This document shows positions 28,560 through 62,171 of a stretch of 64,000 nucleotides of DNA, one piece after another. Numbering within the stretch: position 1 is the first letter of the stretch; each line of letters starts with the position of its first letter. Both the position numbers and the translations under genes were made by a program. A model generated the notes under the pieces. That model ran no database searches. It was not told the DNA's origin and worked only from the letters and a program-made list of their open reading frames with translations. The stretch is taken from NCBI RefSeq assembly GCF_055900595.2, contig NZ_CM148325.1. One strand, 5' to 3'.

Positions 28560-28791
28560 CGAACGCGCCTGATGAAGATCCAGACGATTTAAGCACGGGA
28601 TATTTCGGCTCAGCGTACCGGTCAGCGGAGAACTGGACGACGTCACTGCGAAGCAGTCATTTCAGCGCGGCAGCCCGTCGGGGGATTATTTCTGACAGGT
28701 TTGTAGAAGCAATTTTGCAGTTTTGGCGCGAAAGGTGAGCGTTCATTAATTTGATTTATTCGCATCCATCAACGCTTTTAACTGCTCCGGC

Positions 28792-29270
28792 GTGCGGCAC
28801 TATAATGGTTTTCACAACAAGGAGCCATTTTCTTATACCACTTTCAGAGACCATCCGCTTATGCCACCGCCCTCTACGCAACTGTTTGCAGAGCACCTTC
28901 CCACCGAGTGGATACAGCACCTCCTGACGCTTTCTGCTCATGCGACCATTTGTCGTCTTAACCTGAGCGCGGATGGCGAAGCGGGGATTAGCCTGCTGGC
29001 CCGCAGCGCTGTCACCCAGGAGCGCCAGCGCGTGGGGGCCCCCTGGTGGAATGGCTCTTCCGCCAGACCGCACAGACATGGGGCGCGGAACGTTACCTGA
29101 AGGATGACTGGCACGGCCTGCAACTTTTTGCCATTGATGGCGCACAGTTCAGGACACCTATGAACCTGAGTTGCGTGAATATTATGGCTCTGCCAACACA
29201 TCCACTGAGCGGCAGAGCGCCTACCCGGTCATGCGTCTGGTGGCGTTAATGAATCTGGGAATCACATTCG
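28792..29270 (+). pseudogene. Fragmented DDE-transposase-like remnant (IS element relic) at the left edge of the accessory island
   Basis: Three short consecutive ORFs in different frames (…LFAIDGAQFRTP…, …YPVMRLVALMNLGITFG) consistent with a frameshifted transposase fragment; family not determinable by eye. Confidence 0.35.
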
Positions 29271-29712
29271 GCTGAATGCCATGACCGCGGCCTACCGGCG
29301 GAGCGATACAGCGTGAGGCAACTAAAGCGGCGTCAGAAATCAGCTTTAAGTTCGCATTCCTGTTTATCGTGACAGAAATGATAGTGCAGGGAAATACGGC
29401 GTCACCAGGAACCATCCCGAAACGGCTGGAGCATCTGCGGGGTGCTCTGGAAGCGGTGTTCCCACGACTATCAAGGCCGAGGGCTGTTAAGGTATCAAAA
29501 ACCCGTTATCCGGTGAAACACAGTGCTGCCCCGCTTAAGTGACGGCATTGTGTTTCTGACTGGCCTTAACTTTCCCTGAATCTCTGACGATCCTCACCAT
29601 TGATATTTTCTTCATTCCTCACCAGAGAAATAAAAAATCACTATACTCATCAAAATATGATGATTACCTTTATTCAGGTGATCACCTTACTATTTTATAC
29701 GGAAAATAAATC

Positions 29713-30363
29713 ATGAATATCCGTCAATCATTACATGACCGAATCTATGCAGAATACCCTCAACAGGCTAAAGATATATTACTGTATTTCCCCACTTATG
29801 AAATTATGCCATCGACCATAAAAATGGTTATGATTAATGAGGTGGTAGCTATAACACCGCAAGAAGATTTTTATACACCAGAGTCTGGTTATTTTACGAC
29901 TGTCGCCCGACAGTTAGCGCTGGCTGGATTATCGGCAAGTAGTGGCGAAGTCTTACTCAACCATGGTATCTACCTGACCTCCGCACTGAAACTACCTAAA
30001 ACACAGATCACAGCCACACCCGCGGAGATCATTCTCTGGTCACCTATTGTAGAATGGGAGCTCGAACTCTTTGCCAATATAAAAGTTATTTTCGTTGGCG
30101 GCGATATCGCGCGAAAATGCCTTAACATCATCGCGAAAAAGCAAACACGTAAACATGCCATCCCTTCAACTCCGACGTACAAACTGATGAATAGCGAATT
30201 AGTCTGGAAAGGAATAAGCATACTTCCTGGATATATTCTTACCGGAAAAAACCTGCTCATTGAAAAGTCAAAAATCGAAATGAATGTCGAACAATTAAGA
30301 AAAGGAATTGCGATTTATCGCAATAGTAACAGTAACCATACGAATAATTCAGTTCATGAATAA
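29713..30363 (+). CDS. Hypothetical protein (216 aa), orphan gene in AT-rich DNA at island edge
   Basis: Uninterrupted ORF with plausible start context; no motif I can confidently assign. Confidence 0.45.
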   Translation: MNIRQSLHDRIYAEYPQQAKDILLYFPTYEIMPSTIKMVMINEVVAITPQEDFYTPESGYFTTVARQLALAGLSASSGEVLLNHGIYLTSALKLPKTQITATPAEIILWSPIVEWELELFANIKVIFVGGDIARKCLNIIAKKQTRKHAIPSTPTYKLMNSELVWKGISILPGYILTGKNLLIEKSKIEMNVEQLRKGIAIYRNSNSNHTNNSVHE

Positions 30364-30876
30364 GAGATGAATCATTAATAACAAGAAATCACTGACAAAC
30401 CACCTGTAAAAGGTCAATCATTTTAGTTCAATTTCCTTTGTCATGATTATATTTTTATCGTCCTGACGATACTATTAACAATTACAATATTTATACCCTC
30501 CCCTGAACAAACAGAAAAGAACTCATACATTCGTTTATAATTCTGGTAATCCTGGCATCATACGTTTAAAATTTAAGGTGTTTGTTTTATAATCATGGTT
30601 CCAAAGACTATTGGTCACCAGAAAATGCCAGCCTTTTCGTGCCAGCTATATTTGTCCAGTGTGTTACCCCATCCAAAAATCATCCACATCCTGATGTTAC
30701 GTTAGATATAGAGAAAACAGGTTGTACTGTGCAATATGCTAACCGCATAAGCGAATATAATTTCTAAGCTGATATTGTCTGGCTGTTGGGAGCTAAACAA
30801 TATAAATATCGCCAGTTGCCAGAACGGTTATATAGACCAGGAGCGTTTCGGCTCCTGGTCTGTTTCGGACATATTA

Positions 30877-32991
30877 TCAATCAGCCACTAATAGCGGACT
30901 AGGGATACCAGATGATGAAACAAACAGCCCTTTTACGGCACGGGTTGCAGCCACATGCAGTAACGCGCGCTCATTAAATAATGCATCACGCTGTTCAACG
31001 GGATCATCGGATGCTAATGCTTTTATTTCCGGCACAACGCCTTCGTTAATCCCCACCAGGAACACATACTGGAACTCAAGCCCTTTAATACGGTGCATCG
31101 TTGCAACTCGCACGCCTGGGCGTGCATCGCTGTCACCGCTATCATTGCCTAAATTAAATGTCTCAATTCCGGCGTCATTGAGTGCTGATGCGTAGCGGTC
31201 GCAAGCATGTTTAGTACGCGCAGTAATGCAGATATCCTGAGAACGAACCTGATTCGCCAGCAATGCCTGAATTTGCTTGACGAGCGTTGCAGCCTCTTCT
31301 TTGAAATCTGCCGCATGCGTAATCATGGGCTTTTCCCCGTGCAGTAATGACAAATAATCATTACTGGTATCCGCTTCGCCATCGAGGTTATCAACCTTCA
31401 CACCAGTTAACAGCCCAACAGCAAATTGACGCGTCTCTTCTGTGGTCCGATAGTTAATCTTCAATTTTTTACTGCGACGACCACGGACGTTAATACCACA
31501 CTGACCAAGAACGACCTTATTGCGATAAATACGCTGATGCCCATCCCCGACAATAAACAGATCGTTGGGCGACTCGGGAACCAGGCTGCGAATAAGAGTA
31601 AATGCCGGGGCACCGATATCTTGAGCTTCATCGACGACAATACTGCTATAAGGTAGTTGGACCTGCTTTTCTTTAAACAGAACAATAGCCTCATGCATGG
31701 CATCGCCCATTTCGCGCAGTTTGGCACGCGCCATTTGTGCTCTGAATTCTTCGAAAACTGGCCAGATTTTCGCCCGTTGAATACGGGATAACGCTGTACC
31801 ACGTCCAACCCGGCTGACTTTGAGGTATTCCTCCCGGGTGTAAACCGCATTTGGCTGGACAACGCGTTGCCACTCTTCAGCATAGAAATTGTCAGGTAGC
31901 CCCAGTTCGGCAGGTGCCTGCTGCAAGGCATAGTTCCAGCATTTACGTCGCCCTTCATCGCTGTCGTATACCACGCGGAAATCATAACCGTGGCGTTTTA
32001 GTTGGTCGCTCATCCAGGCATCAATGTTAACGACGTCAATACGCGCCATCTCTTCTCGCGTACACAACCGCTGGAGATTAGCGCGAATATCTGCCGCCAG
32101 GTTACGCGTAAAGGTCGTGAAAAGTACCTTCTTACCGGGTTTATCTACCAGACGCTGAGATAACCACCGCGCACGGTGCATTGCAACAACCGTTTTCCCT
32201 GTACCTGCACCGCCCAGTACTCGTACCGGACCATTAGCGGGCGACTCCACCAGTTTTCGCTGGCTCGGGTGCAGAAATACACGCCATTTTTCTAAAGGCG
32301 CATTAAGCATCTGCAATAGTTCCTGTTCATTTTCAACGACATGGAAGCGACGTTTACTTCGTTCAATCGCCTCCATAAAGTCGTTGGTATCAACAGGCTC
32401 ATCACGATGATCGTTAAACTCTTCCAGCACTTCCTGGTAATCCAGCCCTTCTGCCAGCCAGTGCAGAGGTTCCCAGGCTTCTGCTGGCATTATGCTTTCA
32501 AGTTGATTAAGCCCGGCTTCATCGGTAAGCGCCATCACCTGATCAATAAAGACAGGCGGCACACCCAGGGCCAGAATCTGTTCCGCGCTGTAAGCTGCGA
32601 AGAGTTTCGGTTTATCAACCACCGTTTCCGCTGCCGGTTTGATATAGCTAATATCAATGACCTGAATCGCGCCAGTAACCGGGTGAATCGAACAATCATG
32701 CCGCCGCGCCCAGTCATATGCTTCGTCGTGTTTATCCACCCACATCAGCATATACAGAGCACCCTGTTCAGGTTTCAGAACAATGCCGCGATAAGTTTGA
32801 TCGATTCGCACCGAATGGACATTTTTACTGCGCGCATCGTGGATCTTTTCATAGTTAAGTCCATTACTGGTCGGGTCCTGACGGAATTTGGAGATGAATT
32901 CCTGCACCTTTTTTTGCTGTGCTTTTGGGATCCGCGCGAATGCGCCCAGAAAACCATCAGAAAGTGCCACCTTGGGCGTTTGCACCGTCAT
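30877..32991 (-). CDS. UvrD/PcrA-like superfamily 1 helicase with ~230-aa N-terminal extension (YjhR-like); last gene of the DISARM-like operon
   Basis: Walker A VLGGAGTGKTVVAMHRA, Walker B IVVDEAQDI, C-terminal UvrD_C-like motif ATMHRIKGLEFQYVFLVG; start overlaps upstream stop (ATGA at 32988-32991). Confidence 0.8.
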   Translation of the reverse strand: MTVQTPKVALSDGFLGAFARIPKAQQKKVQEFISKFRQDPTSNGLNYEKIHDARSKNVHSVRIDQTYRGIVLKPEQGALYMLMWVDKHDEAYDWARRHDCSIHPVTGAIQVIDISYIKPAAETVVDKPKLFAAYSAEQILALGVPPVFIDQVMALTDEAGLNQLESIMPAEAWEPLHWLAEGLDYQEVLEEFNDHRDEPVDTNDFMEAIERSKRRFHVVENEQELLQMLNAPLEKWRVFLHPSQRKLVESPANGPVRVLGGAGTGKTVVAMHRARWLSQRLVDKPGKKVLFTTFTRNLAADIRANLQRLCTREEMARIDVVNIDAWMSDQLKRHGYDFRVVYDSDEGRRKCWNYALQQAPAELGLPDNFYAEEWQRVVQPNAVYTREEYLKVSRVGRGTALSRIQRAKIWPVFEEFRAQMARAKLREMGDAMHEAIVLFKEKQVQLPYSSIVVDEAQDIGAPAFTLIRSLVPESPNDLFIVGDGHQRIYRNKVVLGQCGINVRGRRSKKLKINYRTTEETRQFAVGLLTGVKVDNLDGEADTSNDYLSLLHGEKPMITHAADFKEEAATLVKQIQALLANQVRSQDICITARTKHACDRYASALNDAGIETFNLGNDSGDSDARPGVRVATMHRIKGLEFQYVFLVGINEGVVPEIKALASDDPVEQRDALFNERALLHVAATRAVKGLFVSSSGIPSPLLVAD

Positions 32992-35900
32992 TTGTCACCT
33001 CCGGACAGATGTTGCAATGTAATTTCGTCAATTGGCCCGAATGCAACGTGCCAACCCCTGGTTGTGAATAATGGAATAAATTCTTGATTATCAATAATCA
33101 ATGCCCATTTTTGTGATGGCCAGGCGAGATCGGCTTCCGCAATAATTTCACCTTCATCATTTTGCAATTCGTAGCCGAGAGTCGGCGCAGAGAGAGAATG
33201 AGACTGAAGCAACGCGATCTCTTCAGCGCTTAATAAGCCAAACTCAATAATCTCAGCCCAACTTTCATCAGTCTCTGGTACTGCCTCTGGCGTTGCCGTA
33301 ACTTTAACGTCAACGCTTTCCTGCGGTAAATGCACGGCTTTACGGCTGGTAAAGGTCATATCCGGCAGGAACTGTAACAGGTTTACCAGTCGCCAGAAGC
33401 CATTGAGTCCCGCTTCATAACCGTCATCCTGCGTATAGCGATCGTCAAAACAGATATGCAAACGCAGCCAGCTGCGCATTTGTGCGACACTGGTCGTCGG
33501 TTTAATGGCTTGTTGTGGCAACACCGAAGCCAGCTCAATAAATTGCTGCGATGAGTTACAGCTATCGAGTAAACCACCAAAGACAAACGGTTCGTCTGGC
33601 AAAAGCTCTGCTAGCCGCCAGGCTGGCGCGTTTTCCTGCATTTCATAGGCATACTTTTGTTTCGTTCCCGCGTCCTGTGACTTCTTCACATCCAACCACA
33701 CCCAGGCATGTGCAGCAGCCATTCTCTGCCATAACTGCGTTCTTCCGCCCGGATCGGCGAGATAATCCAGCAGCAGTGCAAAACTGTTGCGTTCCCGGAA
33801 CGACGCTTCAAGGGCCGCAAAGTTGGTATCGTGAAACAGGTTATAAAACTTAGGCTGTTTCATATCCGGGTTATGCCCAAGCCCCAGGACATCCTGAACA
33901 TGTTTAAGCCCAGGCTCTTTGAGATCGGCCCACGTGACTGTCCACACCCAGAAATTATCGCTATCCCGAATCGCCTGGCGTTTTTGCACATCCTCTGCGA
34001 CGCTATTTTTGTGAAACGCAAAGCCATCAAGGAAAATAGCTACCGGTTTAATGGCATCAGACTGCATAAGCGGATATAGCACGTAATCCGGGCGACAAGG
34101 GATCCCCACTGCCTCTTTAGCGCCTAAATCCACCTGAGCTTTAAGATGCCAGCTCATCATCGGTTCGCTGCGGGTGTTAATAATCCACCCAGCGCCCTGA
34201 TGCGCGTAACTGCGACTGACAATCAGGTTTTTATTTTCTTGCAGGCAGCTAATAAACCGTTTTTCCAGCTCACTGCCCATCATGGCTTCGAGGGAAATGT
34301 TTTTGATGGAATCAATTACCCGTATCGAATCTCTTGCCTGCAAAATTTTCGCCAGCAAGAGACGCGCCTGATCGCGGGAGACATACTTCATGCGCCCACG
34401 GTCACGGTAAGCGTAAACGCAACGATAACAACCATCTTTATGCGTATCATGGTTGCAACTGCATTCCACTATCGCCTGATAGGCCAGTTCAAGTAATTTC
34501 AGCAAATTGTCGGGAGTGCGCATCAGCTCTTTAAGAGAACCAGTCCCCCCCGGGACGGTATCGTAAATCACCAGATACTGCCGCCAGGATTCGCCTTCAT
34601 TTTCCGGCTCGCGGTACACAACGCCTTTCAGGTGATCGACATTCCCCTTGAAGTAATGTTTAAGGCCGAGCTGGATCGCCGCCCCAAGAGAAGCCTCCAC
34701 GACACGGTCATTACTGTAACTGCTTACCGGGAGCAGAATTCGCAACGCTTCTGACTCCAGCTGGCGATAGAGATAGAGATAATCTTCGAACTTCGCCTTT
34801 TCCGGTTCCGTGCGATATTTGCAGCTCAAATCATGACGTGGTTCATGATCGCGAGGACGCTGTACCATGCCGCACCCCAGGCAAACTTTAAACCCGGTTC
34901 GCTTCTTCGCTTCTCCGGCAATCATCAACTCATTGGCATCATCCGCCATTTTGCCGAAGTTGATATCCCGCAGGGTGACTTTGCTTAAAAATTCAAAACC
35001 AAACGGAACTTCGCCTTCCTCAATCGCGTATGCCGCCGATACATCTTCTTTTTCGAAACTAACCAATAGCTGACGCTGGAAGAAAGCAGGTTCACGGCTG
35101 TCGCTCTCGTCGCTGATCTGGCTATCACGTGCGCTGGCGCGGGCATACACCTGGCGAAGTTTCAGCAGCGTGGTTTTTTGTCCGGCGTCGGCCCACCCCG
35201 GTGTGCCACATTTCGGGCAATATTTATGCTGGTCGCCCGTCTGGTCGATATTTTCGCTGTAGTTACAGTGGCTACAGATACGCCAGTTCTCCGGCTCAGA
35301 GACCTTCAGGTCTATCTGCTCAATTTCAACTTTATGCCCACCGGCATAGAAATTATTCAGCGGAGCCAGCTCAGCCAGCGCCGTTGATGCCGGGCGTTCA
35401 TATTCGAAAGTGGTGTTTTGATATTCACGCGCTTCCCCGCCTTCTTTACGCCGCCAGAGCACAGAACGTAACGTAATACCGGCTTCCGGAAAGGCGTAGT
35501 TAGGCAGCAGACCTTCATCCGTGAGGAAATTCAGCGTCTGCTTATTGTTGATTTGATTGACTAGCGCCATCAGCGCCTGCCGTTCTGAAGTTAACTCGCG
35601 CATATCGCTGTCAAAGTTTTGATCGCGCGGCGCGTTCTCCAGCTTATCGATACTGCGCTTGAGTTTATCGATGCGTGAACGCAGAGATTTGCGATCTTCC
35701 ACCAGCAGTTTTAACGCCTCTTCGATACGCTGCACCAGAGAGCGTTGTCCTGGCGCGCCCTGAAGATAAGACAACAACTGTTGGCGAGTTTCTGCGGCAA
35801 GATCGGGGAAGATCGCCGTAAATTGTGCAGCAATCTCCGCATGATGCTGTTCGATATATCTCAGTAAGTTATACGGAAAACCCGATTTACGCCCGAACTC

Positions 35901-38900
35901 CAGCTCATCCAGCATCTGTTTGACGTTTTTACAGATAGCGGATTCTGGTACACCGGTTTTCACCCAGTTATCCATACAAAAAGCTGCCAGCTGGCGTTCG
36001 AGAATAGCCGTTGCATTGAGGAAGACGCCAGGAGCCTGCACCTGGCCCTGCATCATCTCCAGCGGTTCTTCAAAGAAAAACTGATCGTGCGGGTTCCCTT
36101 CTGCCACGGTAATGTTTAACGCGTTACCATCTTTACGACCGGCGCGACCAATACGCTGCAAGTAGTTGGCCTGAGCAGGTGGGACAGAACAGAGTAAAAC
36201 GGTGGAAAGATCCCCAACGTCAATACCCATCTCCAGCGTCGGTGTTGCCGACAACAGGTTGATATTCCACGGTTGGTTGCCGCGGTAGAACGATTTTTCG
36301 GTGGCTTCGCGATCTTCACGGCTAAGCAGCCCCGTGTGTTCTGCGCCCTGCACGCGCGCGATGTCCATGTTCTCCCAACGCCAGGTCGCCATATTGTCGA
36401 CTTCCTGGTAACGACCTTCACAACGTAAAGAGAGACAAGGCGCATTACGCCACTGCCAGCCTTGATCGGCCGGAGCCCGGACAACCTCACGGCAACATGA
36501 ACAATTAAGCTGAACGACGTCACGGCTCACCACCAGCGCAGAAGGCACCAGTCCCCAGGCTTCACGCCCTTTGGTGTCAAAATCTTTTACTACTCCGGCT
36601 ATTTTCAACGCCGTAAACAGGCGTCGTAACACTGTTTCCGCAACGCTACTGATAAACAGATTATTGCCGTTACTCAGCGTGCGATTGATCCAATGCTGAT
36701 ACCAACTGGGGTTAGACTTCGCGCCAATCAGGCGATGGAAACCATTAATTTTTTCAAACGACGCATAAGCCGGTTTACGCGTTTTCGGACCGATAGAAGG
36801 CATATAGCGCGAGGTACGCTCTTTTTGCGTCATCATAAAGGTCGTGCCATCACGGCGATAACTTTCGAACGTCGGATGCATAACGGCCCCGGCCTGGCGT
36901 TGATACCAAATAACCCCCAGCGCCAGGTGCGCGACCTGCTCGACGCTCACACCGGACATCTCATCACCCAGCTCTTCACAAAGCTGTTGATGCAGGGCGG
37001 TAATTGCCGGATTAAAGCGTTCTTTATCCACTCCGGCAACGGCATAACCGGTGGCTTCCAGCGTACGTCCGATACGCGCGCGCAGGGTAAATTCGCTGTA
37101 CACCTCCCAGTCGAGGCGCAGGGAAACCAGCTCCGGCAGATCGGAGTTCTCCGCCAGTTTGCCTTCATTTTTCAGTGTCTGATAATCATTCAGCCACTGC
37201 ATATTTGGTGCGATGAAGTTCGCTGCAAAATGAGCATCGTCCGGTGAACGTTCACGCGTTTGTTGGCAAACACGCGCCGCGAACGCATCCAGCGGTAATG
37301 TCTCTTTTTCGCCAAGAACACTGGCGATTTGCCCACGAATCATCAGCGGCCAGGTACGGGCAGTAAAGAAGCTGGCACGATGCGCGGCGTCTTGTACCGA
37401 GTCAGAAAACGTAATCAGCTTTTTATGTTCGTTGAACTGGCTGCCATAAAGCTGGTGAATCATCACCGCCGACAGACTGGCAGCCCGTGACCCCAGAATC
37501 GAAATCCCCTGTTTGCTGTTGCAGTACGGGCATTCATTAGCAAACTCCAGCTCGTCCTTACGCTCTTTGAGCATATCCGGGATCAGTACCTGCAACAGTT
37601 CCGTATGACCGCAATGTCCACACTGGACGCTGGACTGTCGGTTCAGTTTCAGACAGATAGGGCACAGTTTCTGGTGTGCGCCACTGACCGCTTTTTCGTT
37701 GTTATCCGGGAAAGCAAGGACGATGGAGCGCCCTTTTTCAAAGAACTGGCGATAAATGCCGTCGAGGTCTGTTTCCAGCTGAACGCTTTGCCCATGACGC
37801 AGGCTGGCCCAGCCGGTTGCGTGGCAGTCACGGCAGTGGATAACCGGCAAATAGTGTTCGCGATCTTCCACCGCCACATCATCGGCAAACACCAGTCTCG
37901 GCGTTTTCGCCACGCTGGCGACCAGACGACGCATCTCACGAAGCCACAACTGGGAACGCAGTTGCACAAACGGCAACACCGGGCGCGCTTTCTTCGCCTG
38001 GAGACGTTTTTGCCGATCGTGTTCCGTTTCCGGTACTTCGAGACGTGCCTGCGCGATCAGCGCCAGAATGCTTTGCAGCACGCGTCGGGCATGGTCGGCG
38101 CTTTCTGCCAGCATGACCTGGAGATTTTCCAGACACTCTCGTTCAGAGAGGATCCCGCCTTGCAGATCATGGAGTAAGACATGCATCACGCTGTGGCGGC
38201 GTAACAGTGACCCCAGCGCAATACGCTTTTCGCGCCCGTCGTCGCTCTCCAGATCGTCCGGGAGTTGCAAGTCGCTGTCGGAGAACCACAAAGGGATTTG
38301 TCCGTTGAGATACGCCACCGGGGTAGCGTAACTCTGCGGGTCCAGCGCCGAAGCGACCTCCGGCCCCGGATACTGACTGTACGCAATGGCGTAATCCTGC
38401 AAGTACTCCGCTGCCGTGTAGCGATCTTCGCGAATAACGGCGTCATCGGTAAACGGCTGGTCAAAGATTGTTTTTGCGTAATCGAGCAGTTGCCCCAGTT
38501 CGTCGCCGACGGTAGCTGATGTCCCGACGCAGGCGAATCGTTGGTTATCCACACCTATGTGATGCTTCAGACGTCGCACCAGACAGGCCAGATCCGACCC
38601 TTGCGCGCCATCAAACGTATGCAATTCATCCACGACCAGGTAACGCAATGAACCGGGCTGGTTGTAACGCCAGAGCGGCTGATCGCCAGGGCGCATCAGT
38701 AGGTAGTCGAGCATTTTGTAGTTGGTCAACAGGATGTCCGGCGGGCTTTCGCGCAGCGTGTGCTTACAGGTAATGACCTTTTCTGCCGACATTTTTTTGC
38801 TGGGTTCGATTTCGCTGTCGCCGACAAACAATCCGACGGTCACCTTGCCATGCAGTTGTGGATCGCTGGCGATGGTTTTGGCGAAACGGCTGGCCTGATC

Positions 38901-39329
38901 GGTTGCCAGGGCGTTCATCGGGTAGATGATAATTGCTTTAACCCCGGCTTGTGACGCGCCCGCGCAGTGGTTGAGCAGCGGGAACATAAAGCATTCTGTT
39001 TTACCGGAGCCGGTACCGGTAGCGACCAGTGTCGGCTGTGGCGCGTCGCATCCCAGACGCTGAAATGCCCGGGCCTGATGCGCGTGCGGCGGGAACGGCA
39101 GCGTCAGATTAGGGAAAAAATTCAGCGGTAAGTCACTTTTACGAAACGGCAACTGGGCGGAAAGGTATGGTCCTTTCAGCAGCGTTTCGGGCTGGGCCAG
39201 AAATTGCTCCAGCATTGAGACATTATCGTTATTCTCACCGTTAAACAGCGGGCTGTTTAGCGGGAACGCCGCCCGTAAAAAGGCGGCAACGCTGTCGGCG
39301 ACCTGCCGACTGACAACGGACGGCAACAT
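32988..39329 (-). CDS. Giant (2113 aa) DEAH-box helicase with C-terminal Cys-rich Zn-ribbon region (DUF1998/MrfA-like); fused DrmA+DrmB-type or DruE-like protein
   Basis: Motif I LVATGTGSGKTECFMFPLL, motif II YLVVDELHTF, motif VI QRIGRAGRKDG; Cys clusters CSHCNYSEN...CPKCG, CLGCGMV, CSCNHDTHKDGCYRC; start overlaps upstream stop by 1 nt (TGATG at 39327-39331). Confidence 0.8.
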   Translation of the reverse strand: MLPSVVSRQVADSVAAFLRAAFPLNSPLFNGENNDNVSMLEQFLAQPETLLKGPYLSAQLPFRKSDLPLNFFPNLTLPFPPHAHQARAFQRLGCDAPQPTLVATGTGSGKTECFMFPLLNHCAGASQAGVKAIIIYPMNALATDQASRFAKTIASDPQLHGKVTVGLFVGDSEIEPSKKMSAEKVITCKHTLRESPPDILLTNYKMLDYLLMRPGDQPLWRYNQPGSLRYLVVDELHTFDGAQGSDLACLVRRLKHHIGVDNQRFACVGTSATVGDELGQLLDYAKTIFDQPFTDDAVIREDRYTAAEYLQDYAIAYSQYPGPEVASALDPQSYATPVAYLNGQIPLWFSDSDLQLPDDLESDDGREKRIALGSLLRRHSVMHVLLHDLQGGILSERECLENLQVMLAESADHARRVLQSILALIAQARLEVPETEHDRQKRLQAKKARPVLPFVQLRSQLWLREMRRLVASVAKTPRLVFADDVAVEDREHYLPVIHCRDCHATGWASLRHGQSVQLETDLDGIYRQFFEKGRSIVLAFPDNNEKAVSGAHQKLCPICLKLNRQSSVQCGHCGHTELLQVLIPDMLKERKDELEFANECPYCNSKQGISILGSRAASLSAVMIHQLYGSQFNEHKKLITFSDSVQDAAHRASFFTARTWPLMIRGQIASVLGEKETLPLDAFAARVCQQTRERSPDDAHFAANFIAPNMQWLNDYQTLKNEGKLAENSDLPELVSLRLDWEVYSEFTLRARIGRTLEATGYAVAGVDKERFNPAITALHQQLCEELGDEMSGVSVEQVAHLALGVIWYQRQAGAVMHPTFESYRRDGTTFMMTQKERTSRYMPSIGPKTRKPAYASFEKINGFHRLIGAKSNPSWYQHWINRTLSNGNNLFISSVAETVLRRLFTALKIAGVVKDFDTKGREAWGLVPSALVVSRDVVQLNCSCCREVVRAPADQGWQWRNAPCLSLRCEGRYQEVDNMATWRWENMDIARVQGAEHTGLLSREDREATEKSFYRGNQPWNINLLSATPTLEMGIDVGDLSTVLLCSVPPAQANYLQRIGRAGRKDGNALNITVAEGNPHDQFFFEEPLEMMQGQVQAPGVFLNATAILERQLAAFCMDNWVKTGVPESAICKNVKQMLDELEFGRKSGFPYNLLRYIEQHHAEIAAQFTAIFPDLAAETRQQLLSYLQGAPGQRSLVQRIEEALKLLVEDRKSLRSRIDKLKRSIDKLENAPRDQNFDSDMRELTSERQALMALVNQINNKQTLNFLTDEGLLPNYAFPEAGITLRSVLWRRKEGGEAREYQNTTFEYERPASTALAELAPLNNFYAGGHKVEIEQIDLKVSEPENWRICSHCNYSENIDQTGDQHKYCPKCGTPGWADAGQKTTLLKLRQVYARASARDSQISDESDSREPAFFQRQLLVSFEKEDVSAAYAIEEGEVPFGFEFLSKVTLRDINFGKMADDANELMIAGEAKKRTGFKVCLGCGMVQRPRDHEPRHDLSCKYRTEPEKAKFEDYLYLYRQLESEALRILLPVSSYSNDRVVEASLGAAIQLGLKHYFKGNVDHLKGVVYREPENEGESWRQYLVIYDTVPGGTGSLKELMRTPDNLLKLLELAYQAIVECSCNHDTHKDGCYRCVYAYRDRGRMKYVSRDQARLLLAKILQARDSIRVIDSIKNISLEAMMGSELEKRFISCLQENKNLIVSRSYAHQGAGWIINTRSEPMMSWHLKAQVDLGAKEAVGIPCRPDYVLYPLMQSDAIKPVAIFLDGFAFHKNSVAEDVQKRQAIRDSDNFWVWTVTWADLKEPGLKHVQDVLGLGHNPDMKQPKFYNLFHDTNFAALEASFRERNSFALLLDYLADPGGRTQLWQRMAAAHAWVWLDVKKSQDAGTKQKYAYEMQENAPAWRLAELLPDEPFVFGGLLDSCNSSQQFIELASVLPQQAIKPTTSVAQMRSWLRLHICFDDRYTQDDGYEAGLNGFWRLVNLLQFLPDMTFTSRKAVHLPQESVDVKVTATPEAVPETDESWAEIIEFGLLSAEEIALLQSHSLSAPTLGYELQNDEGEIIAEADLAWPSQKWALIIDNQEFIPLFTTRGWHVAFGPIDEITLQHLSGGDK

Positions 39330-57220: not shown

Positions 57221-58873
57221 ATGTTAGCGCAGCTTTTTGAGCAGTTGTTTCAATCGATAGACTCTACACTGATCACCAATATTTTCATCTGGGCTGTTAT
57301 ATTCGTATTTTTATCAGCGTGGTGGTGTGACAAAAAAAATATACATAGTAAGTTTAGAGAATATGCTCCAACCTTAATGGGGGCATTAGGTATTCTGGGT
57401 ACTTTCATTGGTATTATTATTGGGTTACTCAATTTTAATACTGAAAGTATTGATACCAGCATCCCCGTATTATTAGGCGGCCTAAAAACAGCATTCATTA
57501 CAAGCATTGTAGGTATGTTTTTTGCCATTTTATTTAATGGAATGGATGCTTTCTTTTTTGCCAATAAACGAAGTGCGTTAGCAGAAAATAACCCTGAATC
57601 TGTTACACCTGAACATATCTATCATGAATTAAAAGAGCAGAACCAGACTCTGACTAAATTAGTCTCGGGTATTAACGGTGATAGTGAAGGTTCTCTTATT
57701 GCTCAAATAAAATTACTACGTACTGAGATTAGCGATTCCTCGCAGGCACAATTAGCTAATCACACTCATTTCAGTAATAAGCTTTGGGAACAACTTGAAC
57801 AATTTGCAGATCTAATGGCAAAAGGTGCTACAGAACAAATTATTGATGCTTTACGACAAGTCATTATTGATTTTAATGAAAATTTAACTGAACAGTTTGG
57901 TGAAAACTTTAAAGCACTTGATGCCTCTGTAAAAAAACTTGTTGAGTGGCAGGAAAATTATAAAACGCAAGTTGAGCTGATGTCAGAACAATATCAACAA
58001 AGTGTCGAGTCTCTGGTTGAAACAAAAACTGCGGTTGCCGGGATTTGGGAAGAATGTAAAGAAATTCCTCTGGCTATGTCTGAACTGCGTGAAGTGCTTC
58101 AGGTGAACCAACATCAAATCAGCGAACTCTCCCGCCATTTAGAAACCTTTGTCGCTATCCGCGATAAAGCTACAACCGTATTACCTGAAATACAGAACAA
58201 AATGGCTGAAGTGGGTGAACTGCTGAAATCCGGAGCTGCAAATGTTAGTGCATCTCTTGAGCAAACCAGCCAGCAAATACTTCTTAATGCAGATTCAATG
58301 CGCGTGGCCCTGGATGAAGGTACCGAAGGATTCAGACAATCGGTTACCCAAACACAACAAGCATTTGCCTCGATGGCACATGATGTCAGCAATTCCTCCG
58401 AAACTCTAACCAGCACGTTAGGTGAAACAATTACTGAAATGAAACAAAGTGGTGAAGAATTCCTGAAGTCACTAGAGTCGCACTCGAAAGAATTGCATAG
58501 AAATATGGAACAAAATACGACTAATGTAATTGATATGTTCAGTAAGACTGGTGAAAAGATTAACCATCAACTATCCAGTAATGCCGATAATATGTTTGAT
58601 TCAATCCAGACATCATTTGATAAGGCAAGTGCAGGGCTGACTTCTCAAGTCAGAGAATCAATTGAAAAATTTGCTCTATCCATCAACGAGCAGTTACATG
58701 CTTTTGAGCAAGCAACTGAACGTGAGATGAACCGTGAAATGCAATCATTAGGTAATGCTCTGCTTTCAATCAGCAAAGGTTTTGTCGGTAACTATGAAAA
58801 ACTTATTAAAGATTACCAAATAATTATGGGGCAGTTACAAGCATTAATTTCTGCTAATAAACATCGAGGGTAA
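57221..58873 (+). CDS. zorA: MotA/ExbB-like membrane protein with long C-terminal coiled-coil tail; Zorya ZorA-like
   Basis: N-terminal TM helices (LITNIFIWAVIFVFLSAWW, LMGALGILGTFIGIIIGLL, AFITSIVGMFFAILFNG) followed by ~400 aa of heptad-like Q/E/L-rich sequence. Confidence 0.75.
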   Translation: MLAQLFEQLFQSIDSTLITNIFIWAVIFVFLSAWWCDKKNIHSKFREYAPTLMGALGILGTFIGIIIGLLNFNTESIDTSIPVLLGGLKTAFITSIVGMFFAILFNGMDAFFFANKRSALAENNPESVTPEHIYHELKEQNQTLTKLVSGINGDSEGSLIAQIKLLRTEISDSSQAQLANHTHFSNKLWEQLEQFADLMAKGATEQIIDALRQVIIDFNENLTEQFGENFKALDASVKKLVEWQENYKTQVELMSEQYQQSVESLVETKTAVAGIWEECKEIPLAMSELREVLQVNQHQISELSRHLETFVAIRDKATTVLPEIQNKMAEVGELLKSGAANVSASLEQTSQQILLNADSMRVALDEGTEGFRQSVTQTQQAFASMAHDVSNSSETLTSTLGETITEMKQSGEEFLKSLESHSKELHRNMEQNTTNVIDMFSKTGEKINHQLSSNADNMFDSIQTSFDKASAGLTSQVRESIEKFALSINEQLHAFEQATEREMNREMQSLGNALLSISKGFVGNYEKLIKDYQIIMGQLQALISANKHRG

Positions 58874-58879
58874 TCGATC

Positions 58880-59587
58880 ATGGATAAGATTATAGGGAAA
58901 CAATTACCTAAAAAAGATCAAGATAATGAACACTGGGTATCCATGTCAGACCTAATGGCAGGGCTGATGATGGTTTTTATGTTCATATCTATTGCTTATA
59001 TGCACTACGTACGTATTGAAAAAGAAAAAATTAAAGAAGTTGCCGTAGCCTACGAGAATGCTCAGTTACAGCTTTATAATGCTCTGGATATTGAGTTTGC
59101 AAAGGATTTGCAAGACTGGGATGCAGAGATCGATAAGCAGACTCTGGAGGTTCGATTTAAATCACCGGATGTTTTATTTGGCTTAGGAAGCACAGAGCTT
59201 AAACCAAAGTTTAAACTCATTCTTGACGACTTCTTTCCTCGCTACCTAAAAGTTCTTGATAATTATCAAGAACATATTACTGAAGTCCGCATTGAAGGTC
59301 ACACAAGTACTGACTGGACTGGAACAACGAATCCTGATATTGCTTATTTTAATAATATGGCACTATCACAAGGTCGTACACGTGCAGTATTACAATACGT
59401 TTATGATATAAAAAATATCGCGACACACCAACAATGGGTTAAAAGTAAATTTGCCGCAGTAGGTTATTCATCTGCACATCCCATTCTTGATAAAACCGGC
59501 AAGGAGGATCCTAATCGCTCTCGTCGTGTCACCTTCAAAGTTGTAACAAATGCCGAGTTGCAGATTAGAAAGATTATTCAGGAGTAA
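58880..59587 (+). CDS. zorB: MotB-like protein with single TM helix and OmpA-type peptidoglycan-binding domain; Zorya ZorB-like
   Basis: TM segment MSDLMAGLMMVFMFISIAY, C-terminal OmpA-family motif (NMALSQGRTRAVLQYV); 6 bp after zorA stop. Confidence 0.75.
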   Translation: MDKIIGKQLPKKDQDNEHWVSMSDLMAGLMMVFMFISIAYMHYVRIEKEKIKEVAVAYENAQLQLYNALDIEFAKDLQDWDAEIDKQTLEVRFKSPDVLFGLGSTELKPKFKLILDDFFPRYLKVLDNYQEHITEVRIEGHTSTDWTGTTNPDIAYFNNMALSQGRTRAVLQYVYDIKNIATHQQWVKSKFAAVGYSSAHPILDKTGKEDPNRSRRVTFKVVTNAELQIRKIIQE

Positions 59588-59590
59588 GAG

Positions 59591-60694
59591 ATGAAATTAT
59601 CTATCGACATTTCAGAACTTATTCAATTAGGGAAGAAAATGTTACCAGAAGGAGTCGATTTTTTTCTGGATGAATCCCCTATTGACTTTGATCCTATAGA
59701 TATTGAGTTATCCACGGGTAAAGAAGTTAGTATCGAAGATCTTGACCCTGGTAGCGGGCTTATCTCTTATCATGGCCGCCAGGTTCTTTTATATATTAGG
59801 GACCATTCAGGGCGTTATGATGCGGCTATCATCGATGGCGAAAAAGGAAAACGTTTTCATATTGCCTGGTGCAGAACTCTTGATGAAATGCGCCATAAAA
59901 ATCGATTTGAAAGGTATCATGCAACTAACCGCATAGATGGTTTATTCGAAATTGATGATGGTTCAGGTCGGAGCCAGGATGTTGATTTACGGGTATGTAT
60001 GAATTGTCTGGAACGACTTAATTACAAAGGAAGTATTGATAAACAAAGGAAAAGAGAGATTTTTAAATCATTCTCATTAAATGAGTTTTTTTCAGATTAT
60101 AGTACCTGTTTTCGTCATATGCCTAAGGGTATCTATGACAAAACAAATAGTGGGTATGTCGAAAACTGGAAAGATATATCAAAATCAATACGAGAAAAGG
60201 CCAAGTATACTTGTAATGATTGTGGTGTGAATTTATCAACCGCCAAAAACTTGTGCCATGTCCATCATAAAAATGGCATCAAATATGATAATCACCATGA
60301 AAACCTTCTTGTTCTGTGTAAGGATTGCCATCGTAAACAGCCCCTCCATGAAGGTATATTCGTTACCCAAGCTGAGATGGCTATCATTCAACGTTTACGT
60401 TCCCAACAAGGGTTATTAAAAGCCGAATCCTGGAATGAAATATATGACCTGACTGATCCATCAGTACATGGTGATATTAATATGATGCAACATAAAGGCT
60501 TTCAACCTCCTGTTCCTGGGTTAGATCTTCAAAACTCAGAACATGAAATTATTGCAACCGTAGAAGCAGCATGGCCAGGCCTTAAAATTGCAGTTAACCT
60601 TACTCCCGCCGAAGTCGAAGGATGGAGAATATATACCGTGGGTGAGCTGGTTAAAGAAATACAAACAGGAGCCTTTACGTCAGCAACGTTGTAA
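59591..60694 (+). CDS. zorE: HNH endonuclease-domain protein; Zorya type II effector ZorE-like
   Basis: HNH motif CNDCGVNLSTAKNLCHVHHKNGIKYDNHHENLLVLCKDCH plus an upstream CMNCLERLNYKG Zn-ribbon; 3 bp after zorB stop. Confidence 0.75.
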   Translation: MKLSIDISELIQLGKKMLPEGVDFFLDESPIDFDPIDIELSTGKEVSIEDLDPGSGLISYHGRQVLLYIRDHSGRYDAAIIDGEKGKRFHIAWCRTLDEMRHKNRFERYHATNRIDGLFEIDDGSGRSQDVDLRVCMNCLERLNYKGSIDKQRKREIFKSFSLNEFFSDYSTCFRHMPKGIYDKTNSGYVENWKDISKSIREKAKYTCNDCGVNLSTAKNLCHVHHKNGIKYDNHHENLLVLCKDCHRKQPLHEGIFVTQAEMAIIQRLRSQQGLLKAESWNEIYDLTDPSVHGDINMMQHKGFQPPVPGLDLQNSEHEIIATVEAAWPGLKIAVNLTPAEVEGWRIYTVGELVKEIQTGAFTSATL

Positions 60695-60705
60695 ATTCCG
60701 AAACT

Positions 60706-60729
60706 CCGTGAAAGTTAAGACTTTCACGG
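60706..60729 (+). terminator. Hairpin after zorE (9-bp stem CCGTGAAAG/CTTTCACGG, 6-nt loop)
   Basis: Perfect inverted repeat 12 bp downstream of the zorE stop; the downstream tract is A/T-rich but not a clean T-run. Confidence 0.45.
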
Positions 60730-60803
60730 AAGATAAATAAAATTTTCCTGATTTGTGACTCAAATTATAAAAGTCGTTTATGGCATAACTTGTCTGTTTT
60801 TTT

Positions 60804-60822
60804 GGTGTAATAGGTATAAAGG
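60804..60822. promoter_or_regulatory. Second NanR operator-like element (GGTGTAATAGGTATAAAGG) upstream of the nanM-like remnant
   Basis: Near-copy of the GGTATA-repeat element at 25413-25433, here ~80 bp upstream of the nanM-like start. Confidence 0.5.
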
Positions 60823-60903
60823 CATATGCTATGGTTAGCCTTATATTTAAAACTTTCCTCATACGGGTGAAGGTTAAAGCTTGGTAGATAGGTTACAGTC
60901 ACA

Positions 60904-61513
60904 ATGAATAAAGCAATAACGGTGCTTGCTATAATGATGGCTTCATTTTCCGTAAATGCGTATGTATTACCGGAAACGCCTGTGCCATTTAAAAGTGGTA
61001 CCGGAGCAATTGATAACAACACTGTCTACATTGGTTTAGGTAGCGCAGGTACGGCATGGTACAAGCTGGAGAAACAGACCAAAGATAAAAAAATGGACAG
61101 CGTTAGCTGCATTTCCTGGTGGACCGAGAGATCAAGCAACTTCTGCATTTATTGATGGCAATCTGTATGTGTTTGACGGCATTGGCAAAAACAGTGAGGG
61201 CTTGACTCAGGTATTTAATGACGTTCACAAATACAACCTCAAAACCAATAGCTGGGTTAAATTGATGTCGCACGCGCCGATGGGCATGGCGGGTCATGTG
61301 ACATTTGTACACAACGGCAAGGCTTATGTTACTGGCGGTGTTAACCAGAATATCTTCAATGGCTATTTTGAAGATCTTAACGAAGCTGGAAAAGATTCAG
61401 CGTACCGGTCACCGGAGAACTGGACGACGGCACTGCGAAGCAGTCATTTCAGTCGGGGGATGATTGTAGACAAATTTGTTGACGCTATTTTGCGGTTTTG
61501 GCGTGAAGGGTGA
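60904..61513 (+). pseudogene. Degraded nanM paralogue fused to a nanS-like 3' tail (frameshifted nanM'-nanS' remnant)
   Basis: 60904-61399 aligns by eye to nanM 26588-27082 with substitutions and an extra A in a poly-A run (frameshift); at 61400 it switches to sequence matching the nanS 3' end (28614-28738), including a 12-bp deletion. Confidence 0.7.
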
Positions 61514-61520
61514 GCGTTCA

Positions 61521-62171
61521 TTAATTTGATTTATTCGCATCCATCAACGCTTTTAACTGCTCCGGCGAAAACGGTGGTTTGCGTCGGTGCAACATCGCAT
61601 GGCAATTAGGGCACACAGGAAGCAAATCATTAACTGGACCCAGCTGGTAATCCTCTTTAATGGCTGAAAGCGGGACCAGGTGATGCACATGGATAAAGCC
61701 TTCAGCGATATCACCATAGATCTTCACCAGATCAACGCCGCATACTTTGCACTGGCATCCATGATGTTCGACCGCTTTATCTCGGGCCTTTTTATCGCGT
61801 TCATAGCGGTTTACTGTCACTTTTATCGCCGCACCTTCAAGGTATGTCTCCTGCGACGGCAACTCATCCGGGAACAGAACGTCGGCTATGGGAGCCGCAG
61901 CGGCTTTATCCTGATGAATATGAAATCCCTGCTCTATGAGTAGTTTGACGCATTTAGATTTTATTCCGCCGGTGAAATCCGCAGGGGTAAATTGCGTCCC
62001 CGTCATCAATGTCGCTGCGATGCCAGCAATCGCCTTCGAGGGGTAACGTCGGCCATGATATTCAATCTCATACAACCGCGCAGGCTGGAACTGATGAGTT
62101 TCTCCCGCATCCCATAAATGGATAGCTTCGATGATATACCGCCGCGGAAGATGATCAGGGAGTTTATTCAT
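61521..62171 (-). CDS. HNH endonuclease-domain protein (216 aa) with N-terminal ~130-aa domain of unknown type
   Basis: C-terminal HNH/Zn-finger motif CQCKVCG...HVHHLVPLS...CPNCH; the last 40 bp of the gene are also present as a copy at 28744-28792. Confidence 0.65.
   Translation of the reverse strand: MNKLPDHLPRRYIIEAIHLWDAGETHQFQPARLYEIEYHGRRYPSKAIAGIAATLMTGTQFTPADFTGGIKSKCVKLLIEQGFHIHQDKAAAAPIADVLFPDELPSQETYLEGAAIKVTVNRYERDKKARDKAVEHHGCQCKVCGVDLVKIYGDIAEGFIHVHHLVPLSAIKEDYQLGPVNDLLPVCPNCHAMLHRRKPPFSPEQLKALMDANKSN

What the first reader, a model, noticed from the sequence alone, without database searches (positions are those of the whole stretch)
28560..61570. ~32-kb defence island bracketed by diverged nanM/nanS sequence copies and an IS relic
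Seen in sequence: the 3' end of nanS plus the following ~58 bp (28735-28792) recurs at 61510-61567, and nanM 5' sequence (26588-27082) recurs at 60904-61399 with about 90 percent identity by eye, a poly-A frameshift and a microhomology-mediated internal deletion (junction GATTCA at 61394-61399). A NanR-operator-like GGTATA element precedes both copies. Everything between (IS relic, orphan gene, three defence modules) is absent from the K-12 arrangement as I recall it. Inference: the nanCMS neighbourhood is a recombination hotspot where defence cargo has been inserted or exchanged between paralogous nan loci.
Basis: partly seen in the sequence, partly recalled or inferred. Interest (0 to 1): 0.6.

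Follow-up and report, generated by a model that had tools for sequence, protein, structure and literature searches.

The report
Known defence array with nanM/nanS scar
The 32-kb block is an intact copy of the already published Zorya II–Druantia III–ARMADA II anti-phage array of E. coli, and the diverged nanM/nanS fragments beside it are the decayed remains of the array's own older neighbour genes, which show it was joined in tandem to the fimbrial/nanCMS region rather than exchanged between two nan loci.

Summary
The repeat is real. 26558-27082 matches 60874-61399 (93%), and 28610-28792 matches 61397-61567 (86%, last 58 bp identical). The right copy is nanM' fused to 'nanS, with an A7 frameshift and a 1,527-bp deletion.

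[quoted passage not shown] Proteins are 97.8-100% identical to E. coli O157:H7 (methyltransferase 90%). Bell et al. 2025 (PMC12458937) described and tested this array.

"Exchange between paralogous nan loci" is not supported. E. coli has one nan locus, and the diverged copy occurs only beside zorE.

Four complete E. coli genomes and Escherichia sp. E1V33 have zorE followed by a 180-bp NanR-operator region and then an apparently intact nanM. TW14425 and GF4-3 show the full layout: uxuA | array | nanM-nanS-HNH. There the array replaces gntP-fim-nanC. The window carries both alternative alleles in tandem, joined 47 bp inside the HNH gene at a truncated IS4-family relic.

O157:H7 shares this junction but has a different nanM deletion. 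That implies one origin, then independent decay of the redundant copy. No integrase or leuX-type repeat borders the array.

The island is known; the scar analysis is a modest evolutionary addition.

The parts
25413..25432 (+). NanR-operator-like GGTATA repeats upstream of nanC (left, resident nan operon)
   Evidence: Motif scan; sequence GGTATAACAGGTATAAAGGT.
25852..26568 (+). nanC (resident copy); the repeat starts in its last 10 bp
   Evidence: ORF list; annotation of near-identical loci.
26588..27694 (+). nanM, intact 368 aa (left, resident copy)
   Evidence: NCBIfam NF010730 E=1e-181. It is 96-98% identical to nanM of other E. coli.
27759..28738 (+). nanS (left copy), frameshifted in this window: a 1-bp deletion near 28546 gives a stop at 28557-28559 (266 aa instead of 326)
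   Evidence: Alignment with K-12-type and CT30 nanS.
28746..28792 (-). 47-bp fragment of the 3' end of the HNH-endonuclease gene; end of the left repeat and left junction of the island
   Evidence: Identical to 61521-61567. The same junction is present in the O157-like strain ERL06-2503 and in CS5L.
28793..29551 (+). IS4-family insertion-sequence relic (first ~40 bp with the left inverted repeat missing, ~630 bp internal deletions, frameshifts)
   Evidence: blastn to an intact 1.39-kb IS4-family element on pCPWW7-IncF. Translation is full of stops.
29713..30363 (+). Orphan ORF, 216 aa, left end of the array block. Weak UDG-superfamily similarity only
   Evidence: No PADLOC or NCBIfam hit. Pfam UDG i-E=0.004. 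It is deleted in O157-type islands. In TW14425 it survives only as two short diverged stretches, 72% and 80% identical.
30877..47112 (-). ARMADA type II. SNF2/BrxHII-like helicase (44254-47112), PglX/DrmMI-like type IIG methyltransferase (39329-44251), YprA/DruE-like helicase with MZB domain and C-terminal HNH similarity (32988-39329), GajB/UvrD-like helicase (30877-32991)
   Evidence: PADLOC hits. Pfam MZB, UvrD. Proteins are 99.3-99.8% identical to the O157:H7 proteins, including WP_000937974.1, the ARMADA II reference; the methyltransferase is 90% identical. Gene order is as defined in PMC12458937.
47336..57009 (-). Druantia type III: druE (47336-53659) and druH (53650-57009)
   Evidence: PADLOC DruE3 2173 bits and DruH3 2545 bits, both full length. 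99.0% and 98.7% aa identity to O157:H7.
57221..60694 (+). Zorya type II: zorA (57221-58873), zorB (58880-59587), zorE (59591-60694)
   Evidence: PADLOC ZorA2, ZorB2, ZorE2 full-length hits. 97.8-100% aa identity to O157:H7.
60695..60873 (+). 180-bp region between zorE and nanM' (zorE terminator hairpin, then a NanR-operator-like element at 60804-60826). This is the nanC-less nanM promoter region that accompanies the array
   Evidence: Present with zorE in 565-582 E. coli genomes. 94% identical to the zorE-nanM spacer of Escherichia sp. E1V33. A similar operator lies directly upstream of nanM in sister species without nanC.
60874..61399 (+). nanM' remnant (start codon at 60904; first 165 codons; +1 A frameshift near 61084-61090)
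   Evidence: At most 94.1% identical to any full-length nanM listed in the spread sample. Among loci aligned directly, the closest were TW14425 (95.0%) and WB61 (95.2%).
61397..61512 (+). 'nanS remnant (last ~115 bp of nanS, including a ~70-bp patch, 61441-61509, of E. whittamii-type sequence)
61521..62171 (-). HNH endonuclease gene, intact; right flank shared with island-free genomes
   Evidence: ORF list. Annotation of CT30, TW14425 and others. The flank is 98.2% identical to CT30.
62251..63180 (+). Phosphorothioated-DNA-binding restriction endonuclease (right flank, not part of the inserted block)
   Evidence: NCBIfam NF045808, 438 bits against a cutoff of 180.

Best explanation

The two nan copies are not paralogous loci. 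The array has its own older neighbour: a nanC-less module made of a NanR-operator promoter, nanM and nanS. A few E. coli strains and Escherichia sp. E1V33 still carry an apparently intact nanM directly after zorE and this spacer. In the two strains where the other end was examined (TW14425, GF4-3), the array lies between uxuA and nanM in place of gntP-fim-nanC.

In the lineage of this window the two alternative alleles of the uxuA-nanM interval were joined in tandem, giving uxuA-gntP-fim-nanC-nanM-nanS-'HNH | IS4 relic-orphan-ARMADA-Druantia-Zorya-promoter-nanM*-nanS*-HNH. The join lies 47 bp inside the HNH gene, next to a truncated IS4-family element.

The join could have been made in several ways. 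One is a homology-anchored import, with one end recombining in nanS/HNH and the other joining illegitimately or through the IS. Another is Campbell-type integration of a circle carrying the array plus its nanMS flank. The direction of the event cannot be decided from these data.

The array-side nanM*-nanS* then became redundant and decayed. Here it carries a frameshift plus a 1.5-kb deletion; in O157:H7 and related strains it carries a different deletion. The two direct repeats remain substrates for recombination.

What is shown: the anatomy, the population distribution, the alternative allele, the shared junction and the independent decay.
What is inferred: the order and mechanism of the joining event, and the foreign origin of nanM*.
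For: Content:
- PADLOC full-length hits for all three systems.
- Proteins are 97.8-100% identical to O157:H7, including the ARMADA II reference protein WP_000937974.1.
- The array is described and tested in PMC12458937. Druantia-Zorya synergy is in PMC13192584.

Repeat.

The right copy is foreign or old rather than a recent duplicate:
- dS=0.18 with dN/dS=0.18 against the left copy.
- No full-length E. coli nanM examined is closer than about 95% to it: at most 94.1% in the sampled rows, and 95.0-95.2% for TW14425 and WB61.
- Its nanS 3' patch matches E. whittamii at 94.5% but typical E. coli at 86%. The CS5L copy is more divergent still.

The right copy belongs to the array:
- The 180-bp spacer and the nanM' fragment follow zorE in 565-582 genomes.
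- This includes IS1-flanked copies at tRNA-Phe sites.

The alternative allele:
- TW14425 and GF4-3 have uxuA | ARMADA-Druantia-Zorya | spacer-nanM-nanS-HNH, with no gntP, fim or nanC.
- S43 and MB06022 have the same right end.
- E1V33 has zorE-spacer-nanM open for at least 313 codons.
- Sister species (E. whittamii, SCPM-O-B-8794) have uxuA directly next to a NanR-operator-nanM.

Single origin and independent decay:
- O157-like and CS5L genomes share the 28792|28793 junction.
- The O157/O145/ATCC 8739-type remnant keeps nanM 1-46 plus 384-628, which extends beyond this window's deletion point.

No site-specific machinery:
- No leuX-type direct repeat at the array borders in the window, TW14425, O145 or O157.
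- No integrase ORF between 28.5 and 64 kb.
Against: - The donor of nanM*-nanS* was not found. There were no hits to an R-specific 23-mer in 100,044 species-representative genomes. Metagenome hits were all remnants or mosaics.
- The four E. coli strains with the array-only allele carry a typical E. coli nanM (96-98% to the left copy, 94-95% to the remnant). They are therefore not the direct source.
- The right copy is itself a mosaic. Parts of it are typical E. coli sequence, so divergence estimates are approximate.
- The IS relic lacks its terminal inverted repeat at the junction, so a simple transposition did not create the junction.
- The 58-bp identity of the two copies is not conserved in CS5L and cannot be used to place the crossover.
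- Only 1.3 kb of the E1V33 locus could be read.
Confidence: 0.7

Rival explanations
1. The array was delivered here as cargo of a mobile element that integrates site-specifically into tRNA-Leu (leuX) and was later immobilised. This is the model of Bell et al. The nan fragments would then be incidental debris.
For: - PMC12458937 Fig. 5B proposes this.
- In O157:H7 an integrase pseudogene and a leuX direct repeat lie about 2-3 kb beyond the restriction-endonuclease gene on the leuX side.
- The region between leuX and the restriction-endonuclease gene is filled with P4-like and CP4-like elements in many strains.
Against: - The array is separated from leuX by nanM-nanS and the restriction endonuclease. 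These genes sit in the same order next to uxuA in sister species that lack the array.
- In O145 and PapRG-06-5 there is no integrase at all between leuX and the array.
- No leuX-type repeat occurs at either array border.
- In TW14425 and GF4-3 the far border is uxuA.
- The tRNA-Phe copies are bounded by IS1, not by att sites next to the array.
Confidence: 0.15
2. A local tandem duplication of nanM-nanS in an E. coli ancestor, followed by insertion of the defence cargo between the copies and in-situ divergence of the right copy as a pseudogene.
For: Direct, collinear repeats in the same orientation flank the cargo. The right copy is a pseudogene.
Against: - Most of the divergence is synonymous (dN/dS 0.18, dS 0.18). 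It therefore accumulated while the gene was under selection.
- The right copy has a different upstream region: no nanC, its own NanR-operator spacer shared with E1V33 and TW14425.
- It also has an E. whittamii-type nanS patch.
- Genomes exist with the array next to a single intact nanM and no second copy.
Confidence: 0.05
3. One reading: defence cargo exchanged between two paralogous nan loci of the E. coli genome.
For: Two nan-like sequences, each preceded by a NanR-operator-like element, lie in one window.
Against: There is one nanM place per genome in the median complete E. coli genome. The R-type sequence is found at exactly one place per genome and always next to zorE. No independent second nan locus was seen in any of the loci examined.
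Confidence: 0.05

Closest known systems
Zorya II - Druantia III - ARMADA II defence array of E. coli (Bell et al. 2025, bioRxiv, PMC12458937; strains NCTC 12900/O157:H7 and ATCC 8739)
   Same: The nine genes, their order and their orientation are the same. Proteins are 97.8-100% identical to O157:H7, except the methyltransferase at 90%. The chromosomal neighbourhood is also the same, between the type 1 fimbrial operon and tRNA-Leu.
   Different: This window keeps a longer nanM'-'nanS remnant, an intact HNH gene and the orphan ORF, all of which O157:H7 has lost. The methyltransferase has a different variable block. The paper does not mention nanM/nanS or the uxuA|array|nanM allele.
Druantia III + Zorya II synergistic pair (PMC13192584, which cites an earlier report of the pair in E. 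coli as its reference 4)
   Same: The druH-druE and zorABE pair is adjacent and divergently transcribed. The systems are of the same subtypes.
   Different: Nothing different in the pair itself. Here it is accompanied by ARMADA II and by the nan scar.
Duplication of the homologous segment by Campbell-type or homology-facilitated illegitimate recombination of foreign DNA (established recombination mechanisms; from general knowledge)
   Same: The topology matches. A homologous segment is duplicated as direct repeats on both sides of the foreign cargo. One copy has a novel junction at its end. Divergence between the copies is typical of inter-lineage DNA.
   Different: The event was not observed and neither the circle nor the donor was found. 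The junction abuts a truncated IS, so an IS-mediated step may have been involved.
IS1 composite-transposon-like relocation of genomic segments
   Same: The array (B-3008, at a tRNA-Phe next to the cad operon) and a zorE'-nanM' fragment (EC3, at a second tRNA-Phe) are bracketed by IS1 copies. Both still carry the nanM' fragment.
   Different: In the window itself there is no IS1 and only one IS4-family relic. The window's arrangement is therefore not a composite transposon.

Membership tests
ARMADA type II (PMC12458937) | Strict gene order: BrxHII/SNF2-like helicase, then PglX-like methyltransferase, then YprA-like helicase, then GajB-like helicase, all co-directional | tested here: met
   The four ORFs 47112->30877 on the minus strand hit DrmD/BrxHII, type IIG MTase/DrmMI, DruE/DrmA and GajB models in that order.
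ARMADA type II (PMC12458937) | YprA-family helicase (helicase core plus MrfA Zn-binding/DUF1998 domain) of the ARMADA II clade | tested here: met
   Pfam MZB PF09369 (9e-13) and Helicase_C. 99.3% identical over 2,113 aa to WP_000937974.1, the paper's ARMADA II representative.
ARMADA type II (PMC12458937) | GajB-like helicase carries an N-terminal RelE-like domain | tested here: inconclusive
   Residues 1-240 of the 704-aa protein have no Pfam hit at E<=0.001. The protein is 99.7% identical to the O157:H7 protein, so it has whatever that protein has. No structure prediction was run.
Druantia type III | druH plus druE, adjacent and co-directional, full length | tested here: met
   DruH3 PDLC00041 covers 3-1119 of 1119. 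DruE3 PDLC00037 covers 9-2105 of 2107.
Zorya type II | zorA, zorB and zorE (HNH), co-directional | tested here: met
   ZorA2, ZorB2 and ZorE2 models match full length, E from 1e-104 to 1e-302. RefSeq names them the same way in near-identical loci.
tRNA-integrating genomic island / satellite-like mobile element | Integrase gene, and direct repeats of the tRNA 3' end at both ends of the element | tested here: not met
   No integrase-like ORF in 28.5-64 kb. No match (<=3 mismatches in 18 nt) to the leuX 3' end anywhere in the window or at the array borders in TW14425, O145 or O157. leuX itself lies beyond the window.
Composite transposon | Two copies of the same IS bracketing the segment | tested here: not met
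   The window has only one IS4-family relic, at the left end, and it lacks its outer inverted repeat. The feature is met elsewhere: IS1 pairs bracket the tRNA-Phe copies.
Sialoregulon operon (NanR-regulated nanCMS) | NanR operator (GGTATA repeats) upstream of intact nan genes | tested here: inconclusive
   Both copies have an operator-like element. The left operon has intact nanC and nanM but a frameshifted nanS. The right copy has only gene fragments. NanR binding cannot be tested with these tools.

The most novel reading that the evidence does not exclude
At this locus the Zorya-Druantia-ARMADA array does not behave as cargo of a tRNA-targeting mobile element. It behaves as an alternative allele of the uxuA-nanM interval, competing with gntP-fim-nanC and spreading within Escherichia by recombination of its flanks. 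A single inter-lineage joining event then created the tandem form that carries both the fimbriae and the array. That form founded most E. coli carriers and also seeded the IS1-borne copies at tRNA-Phe. The nanM*/nanS* scar is a datable marker of that event.
Probability: 0.4. Interest if true: 0.4.

Novelty: already known. Interest (0 to 1): 0.3.

Why it matters
The array itself is published and experimentally validated, so the window adds one more intact copy.

What is new is small but concrete. The diverged nanM/nanS fragments are a scar, and the scar shows three things:
(i) The array once sat directly upstream of a nanC-less nanM-nanS operon, in the place where most E. coli have the type 1 fimbrial cluster.
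(ii) All tandem carriers examined (window type, CS5L, O157-like) share one junction and so probably one origin.
(iii) The tRNA-Phe copies derive from the nan-adjacent form.

This qualifies the published view that the array reached this site inside a tRNA-Leu-integrating element. It also gives a simple PCR or sequence marker for typing the locus. It has no bearing on how the defence systems work.

Tried and rejected
(1) Searching for the donor of the diverged copy.
- A protein search with the corrected 165-aa NanM* returned only fragments at <=95% identity over full coverage, and no closer full-length protein.
- An R-specific 23-mer found nothing in the species-representative genomes.
- A degenerate NanM-motif pattern retrieved only four Escherichia loci, none closer than E. 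coli itself.
- The metagenome scan returned nine loci. All were remnants or left copies.

(2) Reading more of the E1V33 contig.
- The stored locus is only 1,310 bp.
- Its NanM falls in the large E. coli 90% cluster, so it could not be traced by exact-protein look-up.
- Searching E. coli genomes with the E1V33 sequence instead revealed the four array-only genomes.

(3) Testing for excision scars.
- I looked for island-free genomes carrying the R-type nanS patch. All 93 hits were the remnant itself or WB61.

(4) Gene conversion between the two copies.
- Two metagenome contigs show the left nanM with an R-type patch and the A7 frameshift.
- None of 82 complete genomes has R-type sequence at two places.
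- I therefore treat the contigs as possible assembly chimeras.
- WB61, a complete island-free genome, does carry R-type patches in its single nanM/nanS.

(5) Using the 58-bp identical block to place the crossover. Rejected because the block differs between the two copies in CS5L.

(6) Microhomology at the HNH|IS junction: none convincing.

(7) K-12 yjhR as a remnant of the ARMADA UvrD-like helicase: no DNA similarity. The protein-level check (tblastx) returned no output and may not have run.

(8) Rfam scan of the window: no hits.


Full report
**Observation.**
A self-comparison of the window shows two collinear direct matches:
- 26558-27082 vs 60874-61399 (93.2%, E=0).
- 28610-28792 vs 61397-61567 (85.8%, E=2e-46).

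The alignment confirms three features of the right copy. It has an extra A in a poly-A run. It fuses nanM codon ~165 to the last ~115 bp of nanS, a 1,527-bp deletion with 3-4 bp of microhomology (TTCA). Its last 58 bp are identical to the left copy.

Those 58 bp are mostly the 3' end of a convergent HNH-endonuclease gene (61521-62171, minus strand). The left repeat therefore ends 47 bp inside a truncated copy of that gene, at 28792. Immediately after it comes an IS4-family relic (28793-29551). The relic lacks its first ~40 bp (the outer inverted repeat) and ~630 internal bp, compared with an intact 1.39-kb copy. NanR-operator-like GGTATA repeats precede nanC (25413) and the right nanM' (60804).

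**Content of the interval.**
PADLOC models identify three systems:
- On the minus strand, a four-gene cluster: an SNF2/BrxHII-like helicase, a type IIG/PglX-like methyltransferase, a 2,113-aa DruE/YprA-like helicase and a GajB/UvrD-like helicase.
- Druantia type III (DruE, DruH), with full-length hits.
- On the plus strand, Zorya type II (ZorA, ZorB, ZorE).

The four-gene cluster has exactly the gene order that defines ARMADA type II. Its YprA-like protein carries the MrfA Zn-binding domain. That protein is 99.3% identical to WP_000937974.1 of O157:H7, the ARMADA II representative of Bell et al..

All nine ORFs are open. Eight are 97.8-100% identical to the O157:H7 proteins. The methyltransferase is 90% identical because of one hypervariable block.

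The tripartite array, its anti-phage activity and the ARMADA-Druantia synergy are published (PMC12458937). The Druantia-Zorya synergy is published in PMC13192584. The array is therefore not new.

**Distribution among 5,426 complete E. coli genomes.**
- 582 contain zorE plus the 180 bp downstream of it.
- About 447 contain the left junction: nanS, HNH fragment, IS relic, then the start of ARMADA.
- 92 contain this window's form of the remnant.
- Most genomes lack the island. In those, nanS is followed directly by the HNH gene and the phosphorothioated-DNA-binding restriction endonuclease, as in CT30. In K-12 it is followed by ythB and an endonuclease fragment.

**What the right nan copy is.**
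It is not a recent duplicate. Against the left copy, dS is 0.18 and dN/dS is 0.18, so most of the divergence arose while the gene was functional.

No full-length nanM examined is closer than about 95% to it. The sampled rows reach at most 94.1%. Direct alignment gives 95.0% for TW14425 and 95.2% for WB61. Ordinary alleles differ from each other by only 2-3%.

Its nanS part contains a ~70-bp patch, including a 12-bp deletion, that matches E. whittamii (94.5%) rather than E. coli (86%). The homologous copy in strain CS5L is more divergent still.

It is also not a second locus. E. coli has one nanM place per genome. R-type sequence is found at exactly one place per genome, always next to zorE.

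The nanM' fragment follows zorE even where the array, or a piece of it, sits at tRNA-Phe sites bracketed by IS1 (B-3008 and EC3).

**The alternative allele.**
The 180-bp spacer between zorE and nanM' has no counterpart upstream of the left nanM. It is 94% identical to the sequence between zorE and nanM in Escherichia sp. E1V33, where nanM is open for at least 313 codons.

Searching E. coli with the E1V33 sequence found four complete genomes (TW14425, GF4-3, S43, MB06022) in which zorE is followed by the spacer and then by an apparently intact nanM, nanS and the HNH gene.

In TW14425 and GF4-3 the other end of the array abuts uxuA. gntP, the whole fim operon and nanC are absent.

In sister lineages (E. 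whittamii and the divergent strain SCPM-O-B-8794), uxuA is directly adjacent to nanM, which has its own NanR-operator-like element about 60-70 bp upstream.

The uxuA-nanM interval therefore has at least three states:
- empty;
- occupied by gntP-fim-nanC (ordinary E. coli);
- occupied by the defence array.

The window contains the last two in tandem.

**Single origin, independent decay.**
The O157-like strain ERL06-2503 and CS5L have the same 28792|28793 junction.

The remnant of O157:H7, O145 and B-3008 retains nanM 1-46 plus 384-628. This extends beyond the window's deletion point, and in O157:H7 and O145 it runs straight into the restriction-endonuclease gene.

The common ancestor of the tandem form must therefore have had a longer, probably complete, nanM*-nanS*. 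That copy was then eroded differently in different lineages.

**Mechanism (inferred).**
The topology has three features:
- a segment duplicated as direct repeats on both sides of the cargo;
- the left copy ending at a novel junction;
- the right copy continuing into the normal flank.

This is what is expected from either of two events. One is Campbell-type integration of a circle carrying the array plus its nanMS flank. The other is a homology-anchored import, with one end recombining in nanS/HNH and the other joining illegitimately.

The truncated IS at the junction suggests an IS-associated step. However, the missing inverted repeat rules out a simple insertion.

It cannot be decided whether the array block entered a fim-type genome or the fim block entered an array-type genome.

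No integrase and no leuX-type repeat border the array. In O145 and PapRG-06-5 there is no integrase between leuX and the array. This fits poorly with delivery by a tRNA-Leu-integrating element. It does not exclude such delivery for an earlier step.

**Recombination between the copies.**
The right copy is a mosaic of R-private and ordinary E. coli sequence. WB61, an island-free complete genome, carries R-type patches in its single nanM and nanS.

Two metagenome contigs show a left nanM that has acquired an R-type patch together with the frameshift. No complete genome shows this, so these contigs may be assembly artefacts.

**Verdict.**
It is wrong about paralogous nan loci. The island is already known. 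The scar analysis is a modest evolutionary refinement.

Noticed in passing
window 28540-28560 (nanS, left copy): The resident nanS has a 1-bp deletion in an A-run (GGTGAAAGAGG -> GGTGAAGAGG). This gives a stop at 28557-28559, so the product is 266 aa instead of 326. EC42405, CT30, GF4-3 and the K-12 type have the full 326-aa ORF. Neither nanS copy in this window is therefore intact, unless this is a sequencing error.
   Followed up: partly
window 39329-44251 (ARMADA methyltransferase), roughly aa 1000-1500: One block of the methyltransferase is only 42-86% identical between strains (O157, CS5L, TW14425, B-3008, EC42405). The rest of the protein and the neighbouring genes are 98-100% identical. 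This pattern is expected for a swapped target-recognition region.
   Followed up: partly
window 29713-30363: Orphan 216-aa ORF at the left end of the array, on the opposite strand to ARMADA. It has no PADLOC or NCBIfam hit and only weak Pfam UDG-superfamily similarity (i-E 0.004). It is deleted in O157-type islands, cut by IS1 in B-3008, and in TW14425 survives only as two short stretches 72% and 80% identical.
   Followed up: partly
L006/L002 (B-3008, NZ_CP117960.1 2.156-2.191 Mb) and L013 (EC3): At tRNA-Phe sites, IS1 copies bracket the whole array (next to the cad operon) or a zorE'-nanM' fragment (next to yqgA/gss). Each still carries the nanM' fragment and an ISKpn26. This suggests IS1-mediated relocation from the nan-adjacent site.
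   Followed up: partly
window 14116-14133 and L007, L010: In E. whittamii and the divergent strain SCPM-O-B-8794, the uxuA flank joins directly to nanM. gntP, the whole type 1 fimbrial operon and nanC of ordinary E. coli are therefore themselves an insertion at the same point where other strains carry the defence array.
   Followed up: partly
window 61521-62171 vs L025 (K-12 type) and L007: The HNH-endonuclease gene is itself an indel polymorphism. The K-12 type and SCPM-O-B-8794 go from the end of nanS straight to the restriction-endonuclease gene (window 28741 -> 62143).
   Followed up: no
L001 (SCPM-O-B-12142, NZ_CP144928.1): In the genome closest to the window's right end (99.8%), IS1 has deleted everything from inside fimD to inside zorA. 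That deletion removes nanCMS, ARMADA and Druantia.
   Followed up: no
L032, L035 (metagenome contigs) and L037 (WB61): Two short-read metagenome contigs have a left, otherwise ordinary nanM containing an R-type patch with the A7 frameshift. The island-free complete genome WB61 has R-type patches in its single nanM and nanS. This could be gene conversion or allelic recombination with the remnant. None of 82 complete genomes has R-type sequence at two places.
   Followed up: partly
window 54000-60000 vs 32000-46000: G+C content is about 38-40% over druH and Zorya but 50-56% over ARMADA. The modules of the array probably have different origins.
   Followed up: no
window 22765-22925 vs 23830-23990: A 161-bp match at 74.5% between fimE and fimB. 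This is the expected paralogy of the two fim switch recombinases.
   Followed up: no
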